From Eledone cirrhosa (lineage: Eukaryota): a DNA stretch of 64,000 nucleotides. Location: the NCBI GenBank assembly GCA_964016885.1, contig OZ024741.1, positions 271,560,001 through 271,624,000 on the forward strand, read 5' to 3'. The notes under the pieces were generated by a model that was not told the DNA's origin, did not search any database, and saw only the letters and a list, made by a program, of their open reading frames with translations. How positions within the stretch are numbered: position 1 is the first letter of the stretch; each line of letters opens with the position of its first letter. Below are positions 1 to 9,300 of the stretch, in pieces. A program made the position numbers and the translations under genes.

Positions 1-121
1 ACCGTGTTACCTACACGGCCACATTACAGCGTGGACTGTGTGTTTTTTTTGTCATGACACCTACACGACCTCATTTGTTTTGGACTGGATGTTGTGGTAC
101 CAACATAACTTTACATTGAAA

Positions 122-160
122 GGGGTGGTGTGGATGGGGTGGGGGTGGTGAGACGGGGGT
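122..160 (+). other. G-rich tract (potential G-quadruplex) antisense to the LINE 3'UTR
   Basis: ggggtggtgtggatggggtgggggtggtgagacggggg has four runs of 4 or more G. It is mirrored by the C-rich tract at ~5690-5728 in copy B. Confidence 0.5.
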
Positions 161-208
161 GTATTTTGTTAGAGGTGCCTACTGAGTGTAGTAGGTTTCA
201 CTTTGTAC

Positions 209-1555
209 TTAGGTAAGGCGGGTCTTCTGTATTACTGTGTAGCGCCAAAGATCTCGGTCCAGTGACATTGTCTTGGAGAGGTGTAAGTGTGTGAGGTCGG
301 AATTTATCAAGTCGTGGCTACCGTCTATTTTTATTGCCCTGCACTTTTTTTATACAGCTGTCGTCTTTCATGCGCATCACGTGACCATACCAACGTAGTC
401 TTCTATTGAGTAAACAACATCTGATCCCTCTTATTTCTAATTTTTCCCTTAGTTTGTTTATGCTTTGCCGTTCACGTATATTACTCTTACACATCCAGTG
501 GAGCATGCAAGCTTCGTTCCTCTCCAGTCTGCGTATATCCTCTGCACACAATGCCCAGGTCTCACTACCATGTAACATTGCTGTTCGTATGCAGGCATCA
601 TACAGCCTGCCTTTCATTTTTTGAGAGAACCCTTTAGCGGCTAATAGAGGTATAAACTCTCTGAACTTTTTCCATCCAGTTCTGACTCTAGCTACTGTAC
701 TTTCAGAGCACCCTCCACCATTGCTGATTTTGTCACCCAAGTAACGGAAGGTGTCCACTATTTCTATAGAACCATCTGTGTAATGGAATGAGCTAGTATT
801 TTGTGGGCACTTGCTGCTACTTATTGCACCAGAGCACCGGCCACATATAAAATCTATGTTCTTAGTTAGCTTACCTGTGATCCCACTACATCTTTTATGC
901 ACCCATACTTTGCATTTGGGACATAAAATGGAGTTTCTACCTACTCCTTTCCTACACACTGAGCATGGCCATTTCCCGGATGGGACCGGTGCCCTATTTT
1001 CCTTCCTACAAACTAGAACTTTAGTCTTAGACAGGTTAATTTTAAGGCCTTTTGATTCTAGGCCATGCTTCCATGTTTGGAATTTCTTCTCTAGTTCGGC
1101 CATTGATTCAGCTATGAGCATTAGATCATCTGCGTATAGGAGTTTCCATGGGTAGCCGGTCTTGAACTCCACTGGTATAGCCTGAAGGGCAATAATAAAT
1201 AGTAGGGGGCTAAGAACGGAGCCCTGATGAACACCAACTTTTACGCTAAACTCTTCACTATATTCGTTGTTAATTCTAACCTTGCTGACTGTTTCTTTAT
1301 ACATGGCTTGTATAGCTCTCACAAGCCATTCATCAACACCTAGTTTTCTAAGAGCCCACCAGATAATGGAACGGGGGACTCTGTCAAAGGCTTTCTCCAA
1401 GTCGACAAAACTAAGTATAGGGTTTACTTTTAGCTAGGTACTTCTCCTGTAGTTGCCGTACAATGAAAAGAGCGTCTGTGGTACTTTTACCTGACACAAA
1501 CCCGAACTGCATTTCATCTAGATCAATTCGCTCTCTGATTAGTTGCGCTATTACT
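209..1555 (-). pseudogene. Disrupted RT-PHD ORF of LINE copy A
   Basis: Contains QGSVLSPLLF, YADD and the C4HC3 finger (834-965). Relative to copy B it has two 1-bp deletions near 1410-1423, a +1 A insertion near 345-351 and a 30-bp deletion at 312/313. The ancestral TAA is at 209-211. The track's 318..1400 ORF is the fragment between these lesions. Confidence 0.9.
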
Positions 1556-1631
1556 TATATATATATGAATCAGGTATATCTTTCATCTTTGCCTATATAA
1601 TTATATATGTAATGTCATTTTTCATCCCTTT

Positions 1632-1880
1632 ATATATATATATGTACGTATGGATTCACCAAACATTTATTATAATGCTCATTGTGTTTGTAAACAAACA
1701 TCCCGTATTAAGCCGTAGTGTCTAGCAACCACCGTTGCTCGTTTGTTCAACACTGACAAAGGAACGCTGTACTAGTTTCAGGCTTGTTAGCTATCGTCAG
1801 CAACGTATACCTTCCTGCCAGATAGTTGAACGTCCGAAAGTATATACTTTCCTTATGCATATTAACGGCTGAGTAGCCCA
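1632..1880 (-). mobile_element. Arm X of a 249-bp inverted duplication; probable Penelope-like element pseudo-LTR fragment
   Basis: Gapless reverse complement of 2026-2274 with about 7 mismatches by eye. It carries a hammerhead followed by AATAAA and ends in a TA-rich microsatellite. The PLE assignment is inferred from the ribozyme type and arrangement; no PLE RT or GIY-YIG ORF is present. Confidence 0.6.
1764..1806 (-). ncRNA. Type I hammerhead ribozyme (copy 1)
   Basis: Minus strand reads acgttg-CTGACGA-tagctaacaagcct-GAAA-ctag-TA-cagcgt. Stem II is weaker than in copy 2 (one extra mismatch). Confidence 0.75.
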
Positions 1881-1923
1881 ATTTGCATATCGAGTGGTTA
1901 ATCGGCCGGGTGCACCGAAAACG

Positions 1924-2025
1924 ATAAAAGGAAAAAATGAAACGAAATTTCATTTCCCACTCTTAGTACAGCTGTTACTTAAATATAAGTATGTATACGT
2001 ACATACATATATGTATACAGACGTA
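1924..2025. repeat. Arm Y of a 102-bp inverted duplication (partner 2310-2411)
   Basis: Gapless reverse-complement match to 2310-2411 with about 3 mismatches. It abuts arm X' exactly at 2025/2026. Confidence 0.9.
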
Positions 2026-2274
2026 TGGGCTACTCAGCCGTTAATATGCATAAGGAAAGTATATACTTTCGGACGTTCAACTATCTGGCAGGAAGGTATA
2101 CGTTGCTGACGATAGCTAACAAGCTTGAAACTAGTACAGCGTTCCTTTGTCAGTGTTGAACAAATGAGCAACGGTGGTTGCTAGACACTACGGCATAATA
2201 CGGGATGTTTGTTTACAAACACACCGACCATTATAATAAATGTTTGGTGAATCCATACATACATATATATATAT
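2026..2274 (+). mobile_element. Arm X' of the 249-bp inverted duplication; probable Penelope-like pseudo-LTR fragment
   Basis: Inverted copy of 1632-1880. Hammerhead at 2100-2142, AATAAA at 2235-2240, and it runs into a TA/TACA microsatellite. Confidence 0.6.
2100..2142 (+). ncRNA. Type I hammerhead ribozyme (copy 2)
   Basis: Stem I acgttg(2100-05)/cagcgt(2137-42); core CTGACGA (2106-12); stem II agct-aaca-agct; GAAA (2127-30); minimal palindromic stem III ACTAGT; GUA cleavage triplet (cut after 2136). Stem I extends through ctggca/tgtcag and gttcaac(2075-81)/gttgaac(2155-61). Confidence 0.8.
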
Positions 2275-2309
2275 GTGTGCATGTATGTATATATATATGC
2301 ATACTACTG

Positions 2310-2405
2310 TACGTCTGTATACATATATGTATGTACGTATACATACTTATATTTAAGTAACAGCCGTACTAAGAGTGGGAAATGAAATTTTGTTTCATTT
2401 TTTCC

Positions 2406-2411
<6 letters not shown>
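2310..2411. repeat. Arm Y' of the 102-bp inverted duplication
   Basis: Reverse complement of 1924-2025. Confidence 0.9.
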
Positions 2412-2444
<33 letters not shown>

Positions 2445-2451
2445 CATACAT
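2409..2451. repeat. (TA)n/(TACA)n microsatellite
   Basis: Read directly from the sequence. Confidence 0.95.
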
Positions 2452-2791
2452 GGGCATACATGGCTTAGTGGTTAGAGCCCTTGCAATCGAAAGGTTGTGA
2501 GTTCAATTCTCAGACCGAGTGGTGTGTTGTTTCCTTGAGCAAGACACTTTATTTCACATTTCTCCAGTTTACTCAGCTGTAGAAATGAGATGATAGGGAC
2601 TGGGGTCCCTATCATTCCACTGCAAAGTGGTCGTGGACGTGCCACGGCAAAAAAGCACCCAGCACTCACTGTAAATGAGGTTGGTGTTAGGAAGGGCATC
2701 CAGCTGTAGAAATCAAGCCAGAATCAGTTCACGTCCCACCCTTGCAAGCAGGGAAAAGCGGACGTAAAATGATGATGATGATGATGATGAT
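2452..2791 (+). mobile_element. Apparently full-length tRNA-derived SINE with CORE-like body and RTE-related 3' end
   Basis: Pol III A box tggcttagtgg (2461-71) and B box gttcaattc (2501-09) in a T-arm. CORE-like gtgttgtttccttgagcaagacacttta follows. The 3' part (2617-2791) is homologous to the LINE 3'UTR and ends in a (GAT)7 tail. Flanked by TA-rich microsatellite on both sides. Confidence 0.85.
2461..2512 (+). promoter_or_regulatory. Internal RNA polymerase III type 2 promoter (A and B boxes) of the SINE
   Basis: TGGCTTAGTGG matches TRGCNNARYGG and GTTCAATTC matches GTTCRANNC, with tRNA-like spacing. Confidence 0.75.
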
Positions 2792-2803
2792 ATATATATA
2801 TAT

Positions 2804-2919
2804 ATAAGAAAAAGTATGAACCCGACGGCCAAGCTCAAGCCATTTCGGCGGCAATTTCTGAACTGAAATATCCATCGAAATGGCTTGAGCTCTGCCGTCG
2901 GGGTCATACTTTTTCTTAT
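2804..2919. repeat. 116-bp imperfect foldback (hairpin)
   Basis: ataagaaaaagtatgaacccgacggccaagctcaagccatttcg pairs with cgaaatggcttgagctctgccgtcggggtcatactttttcttat. The inner atttc/gaaat closes a 6-nt loop. Confidence 0.9.
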
Positions 2920-2995
2920 TACCTACTCTACTACCCTAAGTATTGAGTACTCTGGTGCTTTATGGTCCATCTGGTTCCTTACCACAATTCCTTTG

Positions 2996-2996
<1 letters not shown>

Positions 2997-3059
<63 letters not shown>

Positions 3060-3061
3060 TA
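2997..3061. repeat. (TA)n microsatellite, about 30 units
   Basis: Read directly from the sequence; immediately precedes the 5' truncation point of LINE copy B. Confidence 0.95.
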
Positions 3062-3062
3062 C

Positions 3063-5642
3063 GGCTACGACGAAATCCATGGAGGCTATGGGTTTGGTAC
3101 TAGAAATGAGGAAGGCTCCAGAATCCTGGAATTCTGTGATGCAAATAACCTAACTATCTGTAACACTAACTTCAAAAAACGTGACAATCACCTGATCACC
3201 TATAGATCCGGGGAACACACAAGCCAGGTAGATTATATCCTTACCAGAAGACGTGACAGAGTGTCTGTTGTTAACACTAAATCCCTCCCCCATGAAGAAT
3301 GCACCTCCCAACATAGACTGATAATTAGCGACCTCATAGTCAGGACGAGACGTACTCGACAACAGAAGAGGACTATCCTCAGGAGGAAAATATGGAAGTT
3401 AAAGGACCCCACAGCCAGGAATAAATTTCAAAGCATATTACTTGATGCTTTCGACAGTAAGGAAGAACATTTAGAGTCGGACAATATAGAGGGAGAGTGG
3501 GAATTTCTGAAAGCAAACCTGCTGTTGGCGACAGACGAGGTCTGTGGCTGGAGCAGGCCTGTAGGCAGGAGGAGAGTAACATGGTGGTGGAACAGTAAGG
3601 TGGAGGGGTCAATTAAGGCCAAAAAGCAGGCTTGGAAAGTATGGCGGGATGGGGGAAGTAGAGAGGACTATCAAGTGGCCAGGAGGGAAGCTAGGAGACA
3701 AGTGTACTTAGCAAGAAGGGAAGCTGAGGAAAGAAAGTTCAAGCATGTTCTACAACGCGATGACCAAAAACGTGAGGTGTTCAGGATTGCTAGGCAATGC
3801 GTCAAGGAAAACCGTGATATTGTCGGGGAGAAGTGTGTACTAAACGACGATGGCACACTTGCCATCACCGACGCTGATAAGAAGGTAGCTTGGAAGTGTC
3901 ACTATGAAAGACTTCTAAATGAGGAGAATAATTGGGAGAAAGGCAGTCTCCCCCATATCGACCCAATAGAGGGACCAGCAGTGTTAGTCGAGGGGAGTAT
4001 AATAAGTAAGGCAATCAAGGATATGAAGACTGGTAAGGCGGCTGGGCCTTCGGAAATAGTTGCTGAGATGCTGAAGGCATCTGGCATGGTGGGACACACC
4101 ATGGTCACCCGCATAGTTAACCAAGTCGTACAAAACGGGGTTGTTCCGAAGGACTGGCATAGCAGCATCATCGTTAACTGTTATAAGGGTAAAGGAGACG
4201 CCCTAGATAGGAGTAACTATAGAGGCATTAAATTAATCGACCAGGTCATGAAGGTCACGGAAAGAGTAATAGCGCAACTAATCAGAGAGAGAATTGACCT
4301 AGATGAAATGCAGTTCGGGTTTGTGTCAGGCAAAAGTACCACAGACGCTCTTTTCATAGTACGACAACTACAAGAGAAGTACCTAGCTAAAGGTAAACCC
4401 CTCTACTTAGCTTTTGTCGACTTGGAGAAAGCCTTCGACAGAGTCCCCCGCTCCATTATCTGGTGGGCTCTTAGAAAACTAGGCGTTGACGAATGGCTTG
4501 TGAGGGCTATACAAGCCATGTATAAAGAAACAGTCAGCAAGGTTAGAATTAACAACGAATATAGTGAAGAGTTTAGCGTAAAAGTCGGCGTCCATCAGGG
4601 CTCTGTTCTCAGTCCACTACTATTTATTATTGCCCTTCAGGCCATAACAGAGGAGTTCAAGACAGGCTGCCCATGGGAACTCCTATACGCAGACGACCTG
4701 ACACTCATAGCGGAATCAATGGCCGAGCTAGAGAAGAAATTCCAAACATGGAAGCACGGCCTAGAGTCAAAAGGACTTAAAATTAACCTGGCTAAGACCA
4801 AAGTACTAGTTTGTAGGAAAGAAAACAAGGCGGCGGTCCCTTCTGGGAAATGGTCGTGCTCGGTGTGTAGGAAAGGCGTAGGTAGAAACTCCATTTTATG
4901 TCCTAAATGCAAAGTATGGGTGCATAAAAGATGTAGTGGGATCACAGGTAGGCTAACTAAGAACATAGATTTTACATGTGGCCGGTGCTCTGGTGCAATA
5001 AGTAGCAGCAAGTGCCCACAAACTACTAGCTCTTTCAATTGCGCAGAGGGTTCTATAGAAATAGTGGACAGCTTCCGTTACCTGGGCGATAAAATCAGCA
5101 GTGGGGGAGGGTGCTCTGAAAGTACTGTAGCTAGAGTCAGAACTGGTTGGAAAAAGTTCAGAGAGCTTATACCACTATTAGCTGCTAAAGGGTTCTCACT
5201 AAAAATGAAAGGCAGGTTGTACGATGCCTGCATACGAACAGCAATGCTGCATGGCAGTGAGACCTGGGCATTGTGTGCAGAGGATATACGCAGACTAGAG
5301 AGGAACGAAGCTTGCATGCTCCGCTGGATGTGTAACAGTAATATACGTGAACGGCAAAGCATAAACGAACTAAGGAATAAATTAGAGATAAGAGGGATCA
5401 GATGTTGTTTACTCGAGAGAAGGCTACGTTGGTATGGACACGTGATGCGCATGAAAGTCGATAGCTGTATAACAAAGTGCAGGGCAATAAAGATAGACGG
5501 TAGTCACGGAATAGGCAGACCTAGAAAAACCTGGGACGAGCTGATAAACTCCGACATCACACACTTACACCTCTCCAAGACAATGTCACTGGACCGAGAC
5601 CTTTGGCGGTACTCAGTAACAGAGAAGACCCGCCTTACCTAA
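3063..5642 (+). CDS. Partial (N-truncated) LINE ORF: C-terminal half of APE endonuclease, reverse transcriptase with inserted PHD finger, RTE C-terminal region; 859 codons without a stop
   Basis: The frame is open 66 codons upstream of the track's GTG start: GYDEIHGGYGFGTRNEEGSRILEFCDANNLTICNTNFKKRDNHLITYRSGEHTSQVDYIL...TSQHRL (APE). RT motifs are NYRGIKL, QFGF, FVDLEKAFDRV, GVHQGSVLSPLLF, YADD (4686-4697) and FRYLG. There is no genuine start codon. Confidence 0.9.
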   Translation, partial: GYDEIHGGYGFGTRNEEGSRILEFCDANNLTICNTNFKKRDNHLITYRSGEHTSQVDYILTRRRDRVSVVNTKSLPHEECTSQHRLIISDLIVRTRRTRQQKRTILRRKIWKLKDPTARNKFQSILLDAFDSKEEHLESDNIEGEWEFLKANLLLATDEVCGWSRPVGRRRVTWWWNSKVEGSIKAKKQAWKVWRDGGSREDYQVARREARRQVYLARREAEERKFKHVLQRDDQKREVFRIARQCVKENRDIVGEKCVLNDDGTLAITDADKKVAWKCHYERLLNEENNWEKGSLPHIDPIEGPAVLVEGSIISKAIKDMKTGKAAGPSEIVAEMLKASGMVGHTMVTRIVNQVVQNGVVPKDWHSSIIVNCYKGKGDALDRSNYRGIKLIDQVMKVTERVIAQLIRERIDLDEMQFGFVSGKSTTDALFIVRQLQEKYLAKGKPLYLAFVDLEKAFDRVPRSIIWWALRKLGVDEWLVRAIQAMYKETVSKVRINNEYSEEFSVKVGVHQGSVLSPLLFIIALQAITEEFKTGCPWELLYADDLTLIAESMAELEKKFQTWKHGLESKGLKINLAKTKVLVCRKENKAAVPSGKWSCSVCRKGVGRNSILCPKCKVWVHKRCSGITGRLTKNIDFTCGRCSGAISSSKCPQTTSSFNCAEGSIEIVDSFRYLGDKISSGGGCSESTVARVRTGWKKFRELIPLLAAKGFSLKMKGRLYDACIRTAMLHGSETWALCAEDIRRLERNEACMLRWMCNSNIRERQSINELRNKLEIRGIRCCLLERRLRWYGHVMRMKVDSCITKCRAIKIDGSHGIGRPRKTWDELINSDITHLHLSKTMSLDRDLWRYSVTEKTRLT
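4857..4988 (+). other. C4HC3 PHD-type zinc finger coding segment inside the RT
   Basis: CSVC-x10-CPKC-x4-H-x2-C-x14-CGRC with the typical W-V-H motif. All 8 ligands are conserved in copy A. Confidence 0.85.
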
Positions 5643-5780
5643 ATATATAGTAAAACCTACTCCAGCCAGTAGGCATCTCTAACAAATACACCCCGTCCCA
5701 CCACCCCCACCCGATCCACACCACCCCGTTCTATGTAAAGTTATGTTGGTGCCGCGCCATCGAGGCCGAAACAAATGAGA

Positions 5781-6010
5781 TCGTGTAGGTGTCACGACAA
5801 AAAAACACACAGTCCACGCTGTAATGTGGCCGTGTAGGCAACACGGTAAAAACCTCCCAGACCCACACTGTAAATGTGGTTGGTGTTAGGAAGGGCATCC
5901 AACTGTAGAAAACCTGCCAGACAGTCCTATGCGAGCAAGACAATCACTCTTGCCTCAAGTGGGACTACCCCCGTCCAAACCCATGCAAGCGTGGAACACG
6001 GACGTTAAAC
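5781..6010 (+). other. Structured LINE 3'UTR: two H-type pseudoknots alternating with CTGTAA(A)-loop hairpins, a GGTTGG..GGAAGGGCATCC stem and a terminal stem-loop
   Basis: Pairings were read by eye. Compensatory changes are seen against the SINE at 2617-2767. Confidence 0.65.
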
Positions 6011-6037
6011 GCTGATGATGATGATGATGATGATAGT

Positions 6038-6053
6038 GAGAGAGAGAGAGAGA
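6038..6053. repeat. (GA)n microsatellite
   Basis: Read directly from the sequence. Confidence 0.9.
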
Positions 6054-6147
6054 CAAAGGTATTAATGGAAAAATTATACTTCATTCATCAAAAAAACATT
6101 TTTATTCTCTTAAAATTGTTAATATGGTTTTACCTTTGATATTTATA

Positions 6148-6210
6148 AATATATATGTGTTTGTGTGTGTGTGTGTATATATATATATATGGATAGATAT
6201 CTGTATATAT
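6148..6210. repeat. Compound (TA)n/(TG)n microsatellite
   Basis: Read directly from the sequence. Confidence 0.85.
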
Positions 6211-6277
6211 ATCATCATCATCATCACCATCATTTTCCGTCCGCTTTTCCCAGCTTGTTGCAAGGGTAGGATGGGTC
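6211..6277 (-). mobile_element. Short 3'-terminal fragment of the same SINE/RTE family
   Basis: Minus strand ccatcctacccttgcaacaagctgggaaaagcggacggaaaatgatggtgatgatgat matches the SINE end at 2732-2791. Confidence 0.85.
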
Positions 6278-6332
6278 CTATTCAGCACAGCTTTTCCCTT
6301 AATTTCATATTTGAAAAGCTGCATCTCATAAT

Positions 6333-9300
6333 GTATACACATCATTAAACACCTCACATATGTCACCATTCTCCTACACTGACCTCAGTATATACATTAT
6401 ATACCTCACATAAGTCACCATTCTCCTACACTGACCTCAGTATATAGATTAAACACCTCACATAAGTCACCGTTCTCCTACACTGACCACAGTATATACA
6501 TTAAACACCACACATAAGTCACCATTCTCCAAAACTGACCACAGTATATACATTAAACACCTCACATAAGTCACCATTCTCCTACACTGACCTCAGTATA
6601 TACATTAAATACCTCACATAAGTCACCATTCTCCTACACTGACCTCAGTATATAGATTAAACACCTCACATAAGTCACCGTTCTCCTACACTGACCACAG
6701 TATATACATTAAACACCACACATAAGTCACCATTCTCCTACACTGACCACAGTATACACATTAAATACCTCACATAAGTCACCATTCTCCTACACTGACC
6801 ACAGTATACACATTAAACACCTCACATAAATCACCCTTCTCCTACACTGACCACAGTATACACATTAAACACCTCACATAAGTCACCCTTCTCCTACACT
6901 GACCACAGTAAACACATTAAACACCTCATATAAGTCACCATTCTCCTACACTGACCACAGTATATACATTAAATACCTCACATATGTCACCATTCTCCTA
7001 CACTGACCACAGTATATACATTAAACACCTCACATAAGTCACCATTCTCCTACACTGGCCACAATATACACATTAAACACCTCACATAAGTCACCATTCT
7101 CCTACTCTGACCACAATATATGCATTAAACACCTCACATAAGTCACCACTCTCCTACACTGACCACAGTATATACATTAAACACCTCACATAAGTCACAA
7201 TTCTCCAACACTGACCACAGTATATACATTAAAGACCTCACATAATCACCATTCTCCTACACTGACCACAGTATACACATTAAACACCTCACATAAGTCA
7301 CCACTCTCCTACACTGACCACAGTATATACATTAAACACCTCACATAAGTCACCATTCTCCTACACTGACCACAGTATACACATTAAACACCTCACATAA
7401 GTCACCATTCTCCTACACTGACCACAGTATACACATTAAACACCTCATATAAGTCACCATTCTTCTACACTGACCACAGTATATACATTAAATATCTCAC
7501 ATAAGTCACCATTCTCCTACACTGACCACAGTATACACATTAAACACCTCACATAAGTCACCATTCTCCTACACTGACCACAGTATATACATTAAATATC
7601 TCACATAAGTCACCATTCTCCTACACTGACCACAGTATACACATTAAACACCTCACATAAGTCACCATTCTCCTACACTGACCACAGTATATACATTAAA
7701 TACCTCACATATGTCACCATTCTCCTACACTGACCACAGTATATACATTAAACACCTCACATAAGTCACCATTCTCCTACACTGACCACGGTATATACAT
7801 TAAACACCTCACATAAGTCACCATTCTCCTAAACTGACCACAGTATATACATTAAACACCTCACGTAAGTCACCCTTCTCCTACACTGACCACAATATAT
7901 ACATTAAACACCTCACATAAGTCACCATTCTCTTACACTGACCACAGTATACACATTAAACACCTAGCATATGTCACCATTCTCCTACACTGACCACAGT
8001 ATACACATTAAATACCTCACATAAGTCACCATTCTCCTACACTGACCACAGTATATACATTAAATACCTCACCTAAGTCACCATTCTCCTACACTGACCA
8101 CAGTATATACATTAAACACCTCACATAAGTCACCATTCTCCTACACTGACCACAGTATACACATTAAACACCTCACATAACTCACCCTTCTCCAACACTG
8201 ACCACAGTATACACATTAAACACCTCACATAAGTCACTATTCTCCTACACTGACCACAGTATACACATTAAACACCTCACATAAGTCACCCTTCTCCAAC
8301 TCTGACCACAGTATACACATTAAACACCTCACATAAGTCACCATTCTCCTACACTGACCACAGTATTCACATTAAACATCTCACATAAGTCACCATTCTC
8401 CTACACTCACCACAGTATATACATTAAACACCTCACATAAGTCACCATTCTCATACACTGACCACAGTATACACATTAAACACCTCACATAAGTCACCAT
8501 TCTCCTACACTGACCACAGTATACACATTAAACACCTCACATAAGTCACCATTCTCCTACACTGACCACAGTATACACATTAAATACCTCACATAAGTCA
8601 CCATTCTCCTACACTGACCACAGTATACACATTAAACACCTCACATAAATCACCCTTCTCCTACACTGACCACAGTATACACATTAAACACCTCACATAA
8701 GTCACCCTTCTCCTACACTGACCACAGTAAACACATTAAACACCTCATATAAGTCACCATTCTCCTACACTGACCACAGTATATACATTAAATACCTCAC
8801 ATATGTCACCATTCTCCTACACTGACCACAGTATATACATTAAACACCTCACATAAGTCACCATTCTCCTACACTGGCCACAATATACACATTAAACACC
8901 TCACATAAGTCACCATTCTCCTACTCTGACCACAATATATGCATTAAACACCTCACATAAGTCACCACTCTCCTACACTGACCACAGTATATACATTAAA
9001 CACCTCACATAAGTCACAATTCTCCAACACTGACCACAGTATATACATTAAAGAACTCACATAATCACCATTCTCCTACACTGACCACGGTATATACATT
9101 AAACACCTCACATAAGTCACCATTCTCCTAAACTGACCACAGTATATACATTAAACACCTCACGTAAGTCACCCTTCTCCTACACTGACCACAATATATA
9201 CATTAAACACCTCACATAAGTCACCATTCTCTTACACTGACCACAGTATACACATTAAACACCTAGCATATGTCACCATTCTCCTACACTGACCACAGTA

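What the first reader, a model, noticed from the sequence alone, without database searches (positions are those of the whole stretch)
5781..5910. Modular pseudoknot-plus-hairpin RNA element shared by the LINE 3'UTR and the SINE, with covariation
Seen: LINE PK1 is tcgtg-tag-gtgt-cacga-caaaaaa-acac (5781-5808) and the SINE counterpart is tcgtg-gac-gtgc-cacgg-caaaaaa-gcac (2631-2658). Stem 2 changes gtgT/Acac to gtgC/Gcac (compensatory), stem 1 goes U-A to U-G, loop 1 varies freely and the A-rich loop 3 is identical. A second pseudoknot follows in the LINE (ccgtgt-aggca-acacgg-taaaaa-cct, 5830-5855). Each is followed by a hairpin with a CTGTAA(A) loop (5814-5829, 5863-5879). The SINE version cTca-ctgtaaa-tgAg versus LINE cAca-ctgtaaa-tgTg is again compensatory. 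The LINE has two pseudoknot units and the SINE one. Inference: a selected, tandemly repeated RNA fold well upstream of the usual terminal stem-loop, possibly an RT-loading site, nuclease block or translation element.
Basis: partly seen in the sequence, partly recalled or inferred. Interest (0 to 1): 0.72.

Follow-up and report, generated by a model that had tools for sequence, protein, structure and literature searches.

The report
Relocated pseudoknot chain of RTE retrotransposons
The flagged stretch is a piece of a jumping gene's front end that in this animal sits at the tail of four related jumping-gene families and inside a short non-coding one, keeps most of its predicted knot-shaped base pairing as its letters change, and likely serves as a position-independent handle that the jumping gene's protein grips.

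Summary
The sequences are present as described, with corrections. The SINE family's stem 2 is 5 bp (72 of 79 copies), so the 'free' loop 1 reflects a private mutation. The LINE's second knot is weak (3-bp stem). A third predicted knot (5878-5918) was missed.

The module is RTE-clade 5'-UTR sequence. A sister family carries it 6-7 nt before its start codon (19 of 20 loci), as do hagfish RTE elements. Four families with it in the 3' UTR form one clade (99/99), which fits one relocation. Over 10 unit types, 89% of cells pair and 6 of 10 pairs change on both sides (shuffles 2.0±1.0), some through CpG decay.

Best mechanism: a movable handle bound by the RTE protein (0.40); host ribosome engagement is close (0.33). 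A ribozyme or nuclease block is disfavoured: 0 of 30 young copies start at the module's edge.

By-product: the SINE's CORE domain fits the same knot-CAG-hairpin layout, with compensatory changes across phyla.

The scan noted this module before on other DNA of this genome. No pseudoknot report turned up in five literature searches.

The parts
3060..5642 (+). 5'-truncated ORF of a young RTE-clade LINE (family W): end of the endonuclease, RT, PHD-type Cys finger, C-terminus
   Evidence: truncation point about 3060
5643..5780 (+). proximal 3' UTR with a C-rich tract; no significant match to the family X 5' UTR
   Evidence: score 27, shuffle max 31
5781..5808 (+). PK1: predicted H-type pseudoknot, S1 5 bp, S2 4 bp, loops 3/0/7, followed by CAG at 5810-5812
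5814..5829 (+). hairpin with CTGTAA loop
5830..5855 (+). PK2: strong S1 hairpin (5-6 bp), weak 3-bp S2; pseudoknot doubtful
5863..5879 (+). [quoted passage not shown]
   Evidence: by eye against consensus sequences
5878..5918 (+). PK3: RTE 5'-UTR motif around AGGAAGGGCATCC, conserved across animals; predicted knot S1 6 bp, S2 GGCA/TGCC
5929..5931 (+). ATG 10 nt after PK3, possibly a vestige of the ancestral start codon (weak)
5972..6033 (+). terminal RTE-type stem-loop (by eye) and (TGA)n tail
2452..2525 (+). SINE head, tRNA-like by eye (ARAGORN calls no tRNA)
2529..2589 (+). SINE CORE-type domain: predicted H-type pseudoknot, then CAG, then hairpin; this copy has TTCTC where the family medoid has TGCTC
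2617..2719 (+). SINE module: hairpin (2617-2630), knot unit (2631-2659), hairpin (2665-2679), PK3 (2679-2719); nearest to the family Y 3' UTR
2732..2790 (+). SINE 3' tail matching the 3' end of family X, plus (TGA)n
1..70 (-). further copy of the LINE module (older subfamily), cut by the window edge; its ORF remnant lies at 318-1433 on the minus strand

Best explanation
The stretch is RTE-clade 5'-UTR sequence, a chain of predicted small H-type pseudoknots and hairpins, that likely moved once to the 3' UTR and likely acts as a position-independent handle bound by the RTE-encoded protein when it loads an RNA for reverse transcription.

Shown: homology to the 5' UTR of sister family X and of hagfish RTE elements; complementary 5' versus 3' placement; one clade for the 3'-module families; retained pairing across families; capture by a SINE.

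Inferred: the fold; the direction of the move (from outgroup states); the route (template switch from a bipartite 5'+3' element, combined with a new tandem-monomer 5' end); the binding partner.
For: Placement. The module lies upstream of the ORF in 20 of 20 family X loci. It is absent from the 3' ends of the 3 X copies with both ends held. In 5 of 5 W copies with the ORF start it lies in the 3' UTR; one of them has an extra motif about 1.4 kb upstream, not examined. Y has none in 7 kb upstream.

Tree. Families W, Y, Z and V form one side of a branch, 99/99, sister to X, with 16 outside proteins.

Outgroups. [quoted passage not shown] A metagenome relative (L180) has a short 3' UTR without it. 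An old bipartite 5'+3' element of the donor type exists in this genome.

Pairing. 89% of cells pair; 6 of 10 pairs change on both sides against 2.0±1.0, 0 of 500 shuffles; slid controls pair 30-53%.

Function. The module is kept behind a stop codon and in an untranslated SINE, where start-codon placement cannot be the selected role. Avian and turtle R2 proteins bind a 3'-UTR pseudoknot-hinge-stem, and compensatory mutants restore activity (PMC12180492, passages).
Against: No binding or probing data. Several units break the knot: Y unit 2 has none with both stems of 3 bp or more, W PK2 is weak, and the first Z unit lacks S2 (by eye). Crude knot energies beat the nested minimum in only 2 of the 9 small units for which the search ran (no coaxial or triple terms). 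Two of the six double changes are CpG-decay types and one depends on register.

The PK3 core is invariant across phyla while the 3' tails differ, which suits a conserved host partner. A related RTE 5' domain also occurs in Ingi and R4 elements (PMC5786205).

A first tree with two very distant outgroups and a composite locus labelled as 3' rejected the clade (AU p 0.039). Z and V 5' ends were not obtained.
Confidence: 0.4

Rival explanations
1. The chain engages host translation machinery. In the 5' UTR it would place ribosomes at the start codon. In SINEs and 3' UTRs it would tether the RNA to ribosomes making the RTE protein, or enhance translation from the 3' end.
For: PK3 ends 6-7 nt before the start codon in 19 of 20 X loci (18 ATG, 1 GTG), in frame with the endonuclease in 11 of 17 measurable copies. 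An ATG follows 8 and 13 nt after it in the hagfish RTE-2 and RTE-4 consensus (by eye). The loop sequence is invariant across animals. CORE, with the same layout, rides on SINEs with L2, CR1 and RTE tails (PMC4824008, PMC5786205).
Against: W, Y, Z and V keep the module behind the stop codon. A LINE mRNA is already on the ribosome. No expression or ribosome data. The module covariance model does not hit CORE.
Confidence: 0.33
2. The knots protect the RNA from exonucleases (an Xrn1 or exosome block), stabilising transcripts that end in (UGA)n.
For: Tandem compact knots with A-rich loop 3. Some non-autonomous elements begin sharply at a knot.
Against: Among 30 young copies chosen only on their last 88 nt, 0 start at the module's 5' edge and 2 start inside it (one beside an assembly gap). 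Twelve start across 4579-5636 and 16 run beyond the held flank. No Rfam hit over the module.
Confidence: 0.11
3. The module is a neutral passenger of a captured bipartite tail. Pairing persists by descent, CpG decay and unit shuffling.
For: Broken units exist. Unit number varies from 1 to more than 10. Rows are related, so shuffle counts overstate significance.
Against: It is retained in four families about 67-78% identical in protein while the flanking 3' UTR diverges. Transversion-type compensations occur in S2 (U-A to A-U) and in the hairpin.
Confidence: 0.12
4. The module is a self-cleaving ribozyme.
For: RTE 5' UTRs are reported to carry HDV-like ribozymes (cited in PMC5786205; the primary paper was not held).
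Against: A loose descriptor without positive control finds no HDV-like or hammerhead core in the W 3' UTR or the SINE. Cleavage there would sever the ORF or the Pol III head, yet long W copies and headed SINEs are common.
Confidence: 0.04

Closest known systems
RTE 5'-UTR-derived SINE bodies and bipartite RTE elements (Kojima 2018, PMC5786205, parts 1-4 of 5 and supplement passages read; Kojima 2020, PMC7245038, passages and supplement passages read)
   Same: [quoted passage not shown] Family X also carries Kojima's conserved RTE 5' domain. The SINE is head + CORE + RTE 5' piece + RTE 3' tail.
   Different: Here autonomous LINEs carry the 5' piece in their 3' UTR, and the SINE took it from such a 3' UTR. 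The parts read propose no structure; Kojima 2018 suggests transcription-factor binding.
A-clade R2 3'-UTR pseudoknot-hinge-stem (PMC12180492, passages read)
   Same: Non-LTR retrotransposon RNA with a small pseudoknot followed by a stem, in a 3' UTR; element with a zinc finger.
   Different: The R2 motif is 3'-terminal and single, with binding shown. This one is 5'-derived, tandem and 50-190 nt upstream of a separate terminal stem-loop, with binding untested. Works-like analogy only.
CORE domain of CORE-SINEs (PMC4824008, parts 2-3 of 6 and supplement passages; PMC5786205 supplement passages)
   Same: Same predicted layout (5-bp S1, 5-6-bp S2, loop 2 of 0-1 nt, then CAG and a CTGTAAA-loop hairpin in MIR and BivaCORE-SINE2). 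The hairpin sequence is nearly the same by eye.
   Different: Loop 3 is pyrimidine-rich and 11-12 nt in CORE, A-rich and 5-9 nt here. Sequence similarity is marginal (12 and 36 of 1000 shuffles as high). The module model does not hit CORE.
HDV-like ribozymes in RTE, R2 and Ingi 5' UTRs (as cited in PMC5786205)
   Same: Pseudoknotted RNA of RTE 5'-UTR origin.
   Different: Simple H-type knot rather than a nested double pseudoknot; no descriptor hit in the module; internal position.

Membership tests
RTE-clade LINE | single ORF with AP endonuclease and RT | tested here: met
RTE-clade LINE | microsatellite 3' tail | tested here: met
   (TGA)n
RTE-clade LINE | RT groups with named RTE references | not tested
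   the tree used unnamed homologues; clade assignment rests on domain layout and shared UTR motifs
RTE 5'-UTR-derived (bipartite) segment | homology to the 5' UTR of an autonomous RTE | tested here: met
   score 76.5 against shuffle max 32 versus the X 5' UTR; hagfish RTE-2/-4 by eye
RTE 5'-UTR-derived (bipartite) segment | joined to an RTE 3' end | tested here: met
H-type pseudoknot | two interleaved stems kept by covariation | tested here: inconclusive
   one search is positive on 10 related rows; broken units and marginal energies; R-scape not available
H-type pseudoknot | both stems formed in solution | not testable with these tools
   needs probing
Meta-domain (MetaSINE) | 66-bp Meta consensus | tested here: not met
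   the consensus printed differs (by eye)
CORE domain (module 5781-5879) | CORE 5' conserved core | tested here: not met
   absent from the module; only the hairpin resembles CORE's 3' half
CORE domain (SINE 2529-2589) | CORE core sequence after a tRNA-like head | tested here: met
   close by eye to BivaCORE-SINE1/2
HDV-like ribozyme | nested double pseudoknot with catalytic C | tested here: not met
   0 hits in the W 3' UTR and the SINE; loose descriptor without positive control
R2-type RT-bound pseudoknot | bound by the element's protein | not testable with these tools
   no binding assay
Rfam families | covariance-model hit | tested here: not met
   none of 42 weak hits in 1-6400 overlaps 5781-5918

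The most novel reading that the evidence does not exclude
Small H-type pseudoknots followed by CAG and a CTGTAAA-loop hairpin are a shared, movable RNA module of non-LTR retrotransposons. RTE 5' UTRs are chains of them, an autonomous LINE clade moved the chain to its 3' UTR without loss, and the CORE domain of SINEs from molluscs to mammals (MIR) is the same kind of knot. The long-unexplained conservation of CORE would then reflect an RNA fold that binds a common partner.
Probability: 0.35. Interest if true: 0.8.

Novelty: new variant of a known kind. Interest (0 to 1): 0.58.

Why it matters
The role of RTE 5'-UTR pieces kept by SINEs, and of conserved SINE bodies such as CORE, is described as unclear (PMC5786205; PMC11481361, passages). 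This finding gives base-pair-level models with natural compensatory variants. It also gives a natural experiment: sister LINE families carry the same module at opposite ends of the RNA, and the young W family has many long, identical copies. That makes 'protein handle versus ribosome handle' directly testable.

Tried and rejected
Rfam scan: only low-complexity noise.

Meta-domain guess: rejected (MetaSINE supplement file 1 could not be searched).

No RNA holder listed. Contigs laid from 3 of 6 listed runs gave only variant letters, for example CCTGCC>CCCGCC in PK3 stem 2, which breaks one pair.

Trees: the C-terminal tree was unresolved. The tree with distant outgroups and composite locus L128 did not give the clade. 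L128, L111, L062, L280, L292 and the two distant outgroups were left out.

Alignments: A1 held a mis-specified row and was redone. Hairpin pairs were not counted on A2 (misregistered), and CORE alignment A3 was not used for pair counts.

Covariance model: it found no small-knot unit in 18 metagenome or MAG loci (best E 0.18), so that unit is shown only in this genome. Analogous knots in L168 and hagfish RTE-2 rest on a crude search or on reading by eye.

Collection scans: viral and prokaryote scans were mostly chance matches. Homology of the X Kojima-domain knot to the module knot was not significant (92 of 1000 shuffles).

Papers not held: Gilbert and Labuda 1999, and Ruminski 2011.

Full report
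1. Observation. The strings and coordinates are right and far from chance (2 matches against 0.00 expected). The host element is a 5'-truncated LINE with endonuclease end, RT and a PHD-type finger. It belongs to a young family, here W, with 40 of 40 scored 3' UTRs identical. The genome is about 3 Gb; that it is an octopod is my recollection from its repeats, not a call result.

The SINE copy in the window is atypical. 72 of 79 distinct copies have a 5-bp stem 2 and only 1 has the window's variant. A covariance model finds a further unit at 68-17 on the minus strand. Behind the second hairpin lies a third element, PK3 (5878-5918).

2. What it is. PK3's core was found in 120 metagenome stretches, many in SINE-like or bipartite animal elements and some by chance. 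[quoted passage not shown] It is not the Meta-domain.

In this genome an older family X (55-65% protein identity) carries two knot-hairpin units plus PK3 upstream of its ORF in 20 of 20 loci. PK3 ends 6-7 nt before the start codon in 19 of 20. X's 3' UTR is short and lacks the module. The window's module aligns to the X 5' UTR at 76.5 against a shuffle maximum of 32.

Families W, Y, Z and V carry the module in the 3' UTR, in 1 to more than 10 units. W and Y lack it next to the ORF start and have tandem-monomer 5' ends instead. Z and V 5' ends were not found. With 16 outside proteins (of 120 listed), the seven 3'-module rows form one clade (99/99), sister to X. An earlier tree with a composite locus and distant outgroups did not give this clade.

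Outgroup states point to a single 5'-to-3' move: the hagfish 5' UTRs and the short 3' UTR of L180. An old bipartite element of the donor type is present, so tail capture by template switching is the likely route (inferred). The SINE is a mosaic of tRNA-like head, CORE, Y-type module and X-type tail.

3. Is the fold selected? On 10 unit types found with pairing-blind anchors, 89% of cells pair. Six of 10 pairs change on both sides (shuffles 2.0±1.0, 0 of 500), and slid controls pair 30-53%. Two double changes are CpG-decay types and one is register-dependent; U-A to A-U in S2 and A-U to U-A in the hairpin are not. Rows are related, so the shuffle count is not a probability.

Knot-forming potential exceeds all 40 shuffles in 7 of 9 small units. 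Unit I does not (8 of 40 as good) and Y unit 2 forms none. Estimated energies beat the nested minimum in only 2 of these 9.

For PK3, 14 of 36 element types have S1 of 5 bp or more and 19 of 36 have S2 of 4 bp or more, against 4.1±1.8 and 7.2±2.3. That is conserved complementarity, not covariation. The 36 include chance hits, and the largest metagenome family (77 hits) lacks S2. The fold is likely but not proven, and individual units are dispensable.

4. Mechanism. Retention behind a stop codon and in an untranslated SINE argues for a position-independent role. Cleavage or nuclease blocking would be expected to leave copies starting at the module; 0 of 30 do. No ribozyme core was found. I commit to a handle for the RTE protein (0.40), by analogy with the R2 pseudoknot-hinge-stem (PMC12180492, passages). 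Host ribosome engagement (0.33) is nearly as good, given the start-codon position and cross-phylum invariance. Nothing here tests binding.

5. CORE by-product. The SINE's CORE (2529-2589) fits the same layout. S1 occurs as GTGAC:GTCAC (MIR types), GTTTC:GAAAC and GTATC:GATAC (bivalves), and ATGCC:GGCAT and ATACC:GGTAT (squid). S2 occurs as GGGCA:TGCCT, GGACA:TGTCC, GAGCA:TGCTC and GGGAA:TTCTC. One CORE-RTE SINE has a 4-bp S2.

In fetched DNA, both stems are met (S1 at least 4 of 5, S2 5 of 5) in 73 of 83 genome copies, 4 of 86 prokaryote-collection hits and 0 of 32 viral hits. Those 4, plus L433, look like animal CORE-SINE contaminants. This classification was by eye and not blind. The family's own S1 has one mismatch in the standard register. 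Knot potential beats 40 shuffles in 6 of 7 copies, with 1 of 40 as good for the seventh; L433's best knot has another register. Homology between CORE and the module is unproven.

6. Literature. Five searches with 'pseudoknot' plus SINE, RTE, R2 or CORE terms (listings and abstract starts seen) showed no report of these folds. Find look-ups gave no 'pseudoknot' in PMC7245038, PMC4758252, PMC13295347, PMC6007223, PMC7941889 or PMC11481361. PMC9115989 (passages) describes an octopus RTE with a microsatellite-rich 3' UTR and no such module in the passages seen. PMC3531059 was seen as passages. Subscription papers, two papers not held, figures and unread supplements may hold structure models.

The scan itself noted this module at least four times elsewhere in this genome; those notes are not independent support.

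7. Verdict. A real, probably selected RNA module: known at the sequence level, new in fold and relocation. Interest 0.58.

Noticed in passing
window 6343-63502: 52-bp satellite, about 1,100 copies, 93% matches.
   Followed up: no
L314, L315 upstream of the W ORF: The 5' end of family W is an array of about 450-bp monomers, 7 to 12 or more copies, resembling L1 monomer promoters (recalled).
   Followed up: partly
window 2529-2589; L307, L429, L433, L456, L483, L490: The CORE domain fits an H-type pseudoknot with compensatory changes across phyla.
   Followed up: partly
L299-L313: Old bipartite non-autonomous element whose 5' part resembles the 5' end of hagfish RTE-4_EBu and which ends in a local RTE tail.
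   Followed up: partly
L327:2868-2905: Kojima's conserved RTE 5' domain in family X ends in a predicted small knot with the same loop-3 letters as the module unit. The same 5' UTR gave one loose HDV-like descriptor hit, uncontrolled.
   Followed up: partly
L483:214-268: A segment of a contaminant SINE, Deu/Nin-like by eye, weakly hits the module model (E 1.2); that domain may hold a similar knot.
   Followed up: no
L128, L076, L292, L123, L105: The 49-50-bp unit expands into minisatellites inside old LINE copies.
   Followed up: no
window about 1660-2400 and 2810-2920: Long inverted repeats, MITE-like by eye.
   Followed up: no
L353-L382 and window 2997-3061: Most truncated W copies have (TA)n-rich DNA at their 5' junction.
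   Followed up: no
L429, L433, L456, L483, L490: Animal SINE sequence inside prokaryote genome assemblies, probably host contamination.
   Followed up: no
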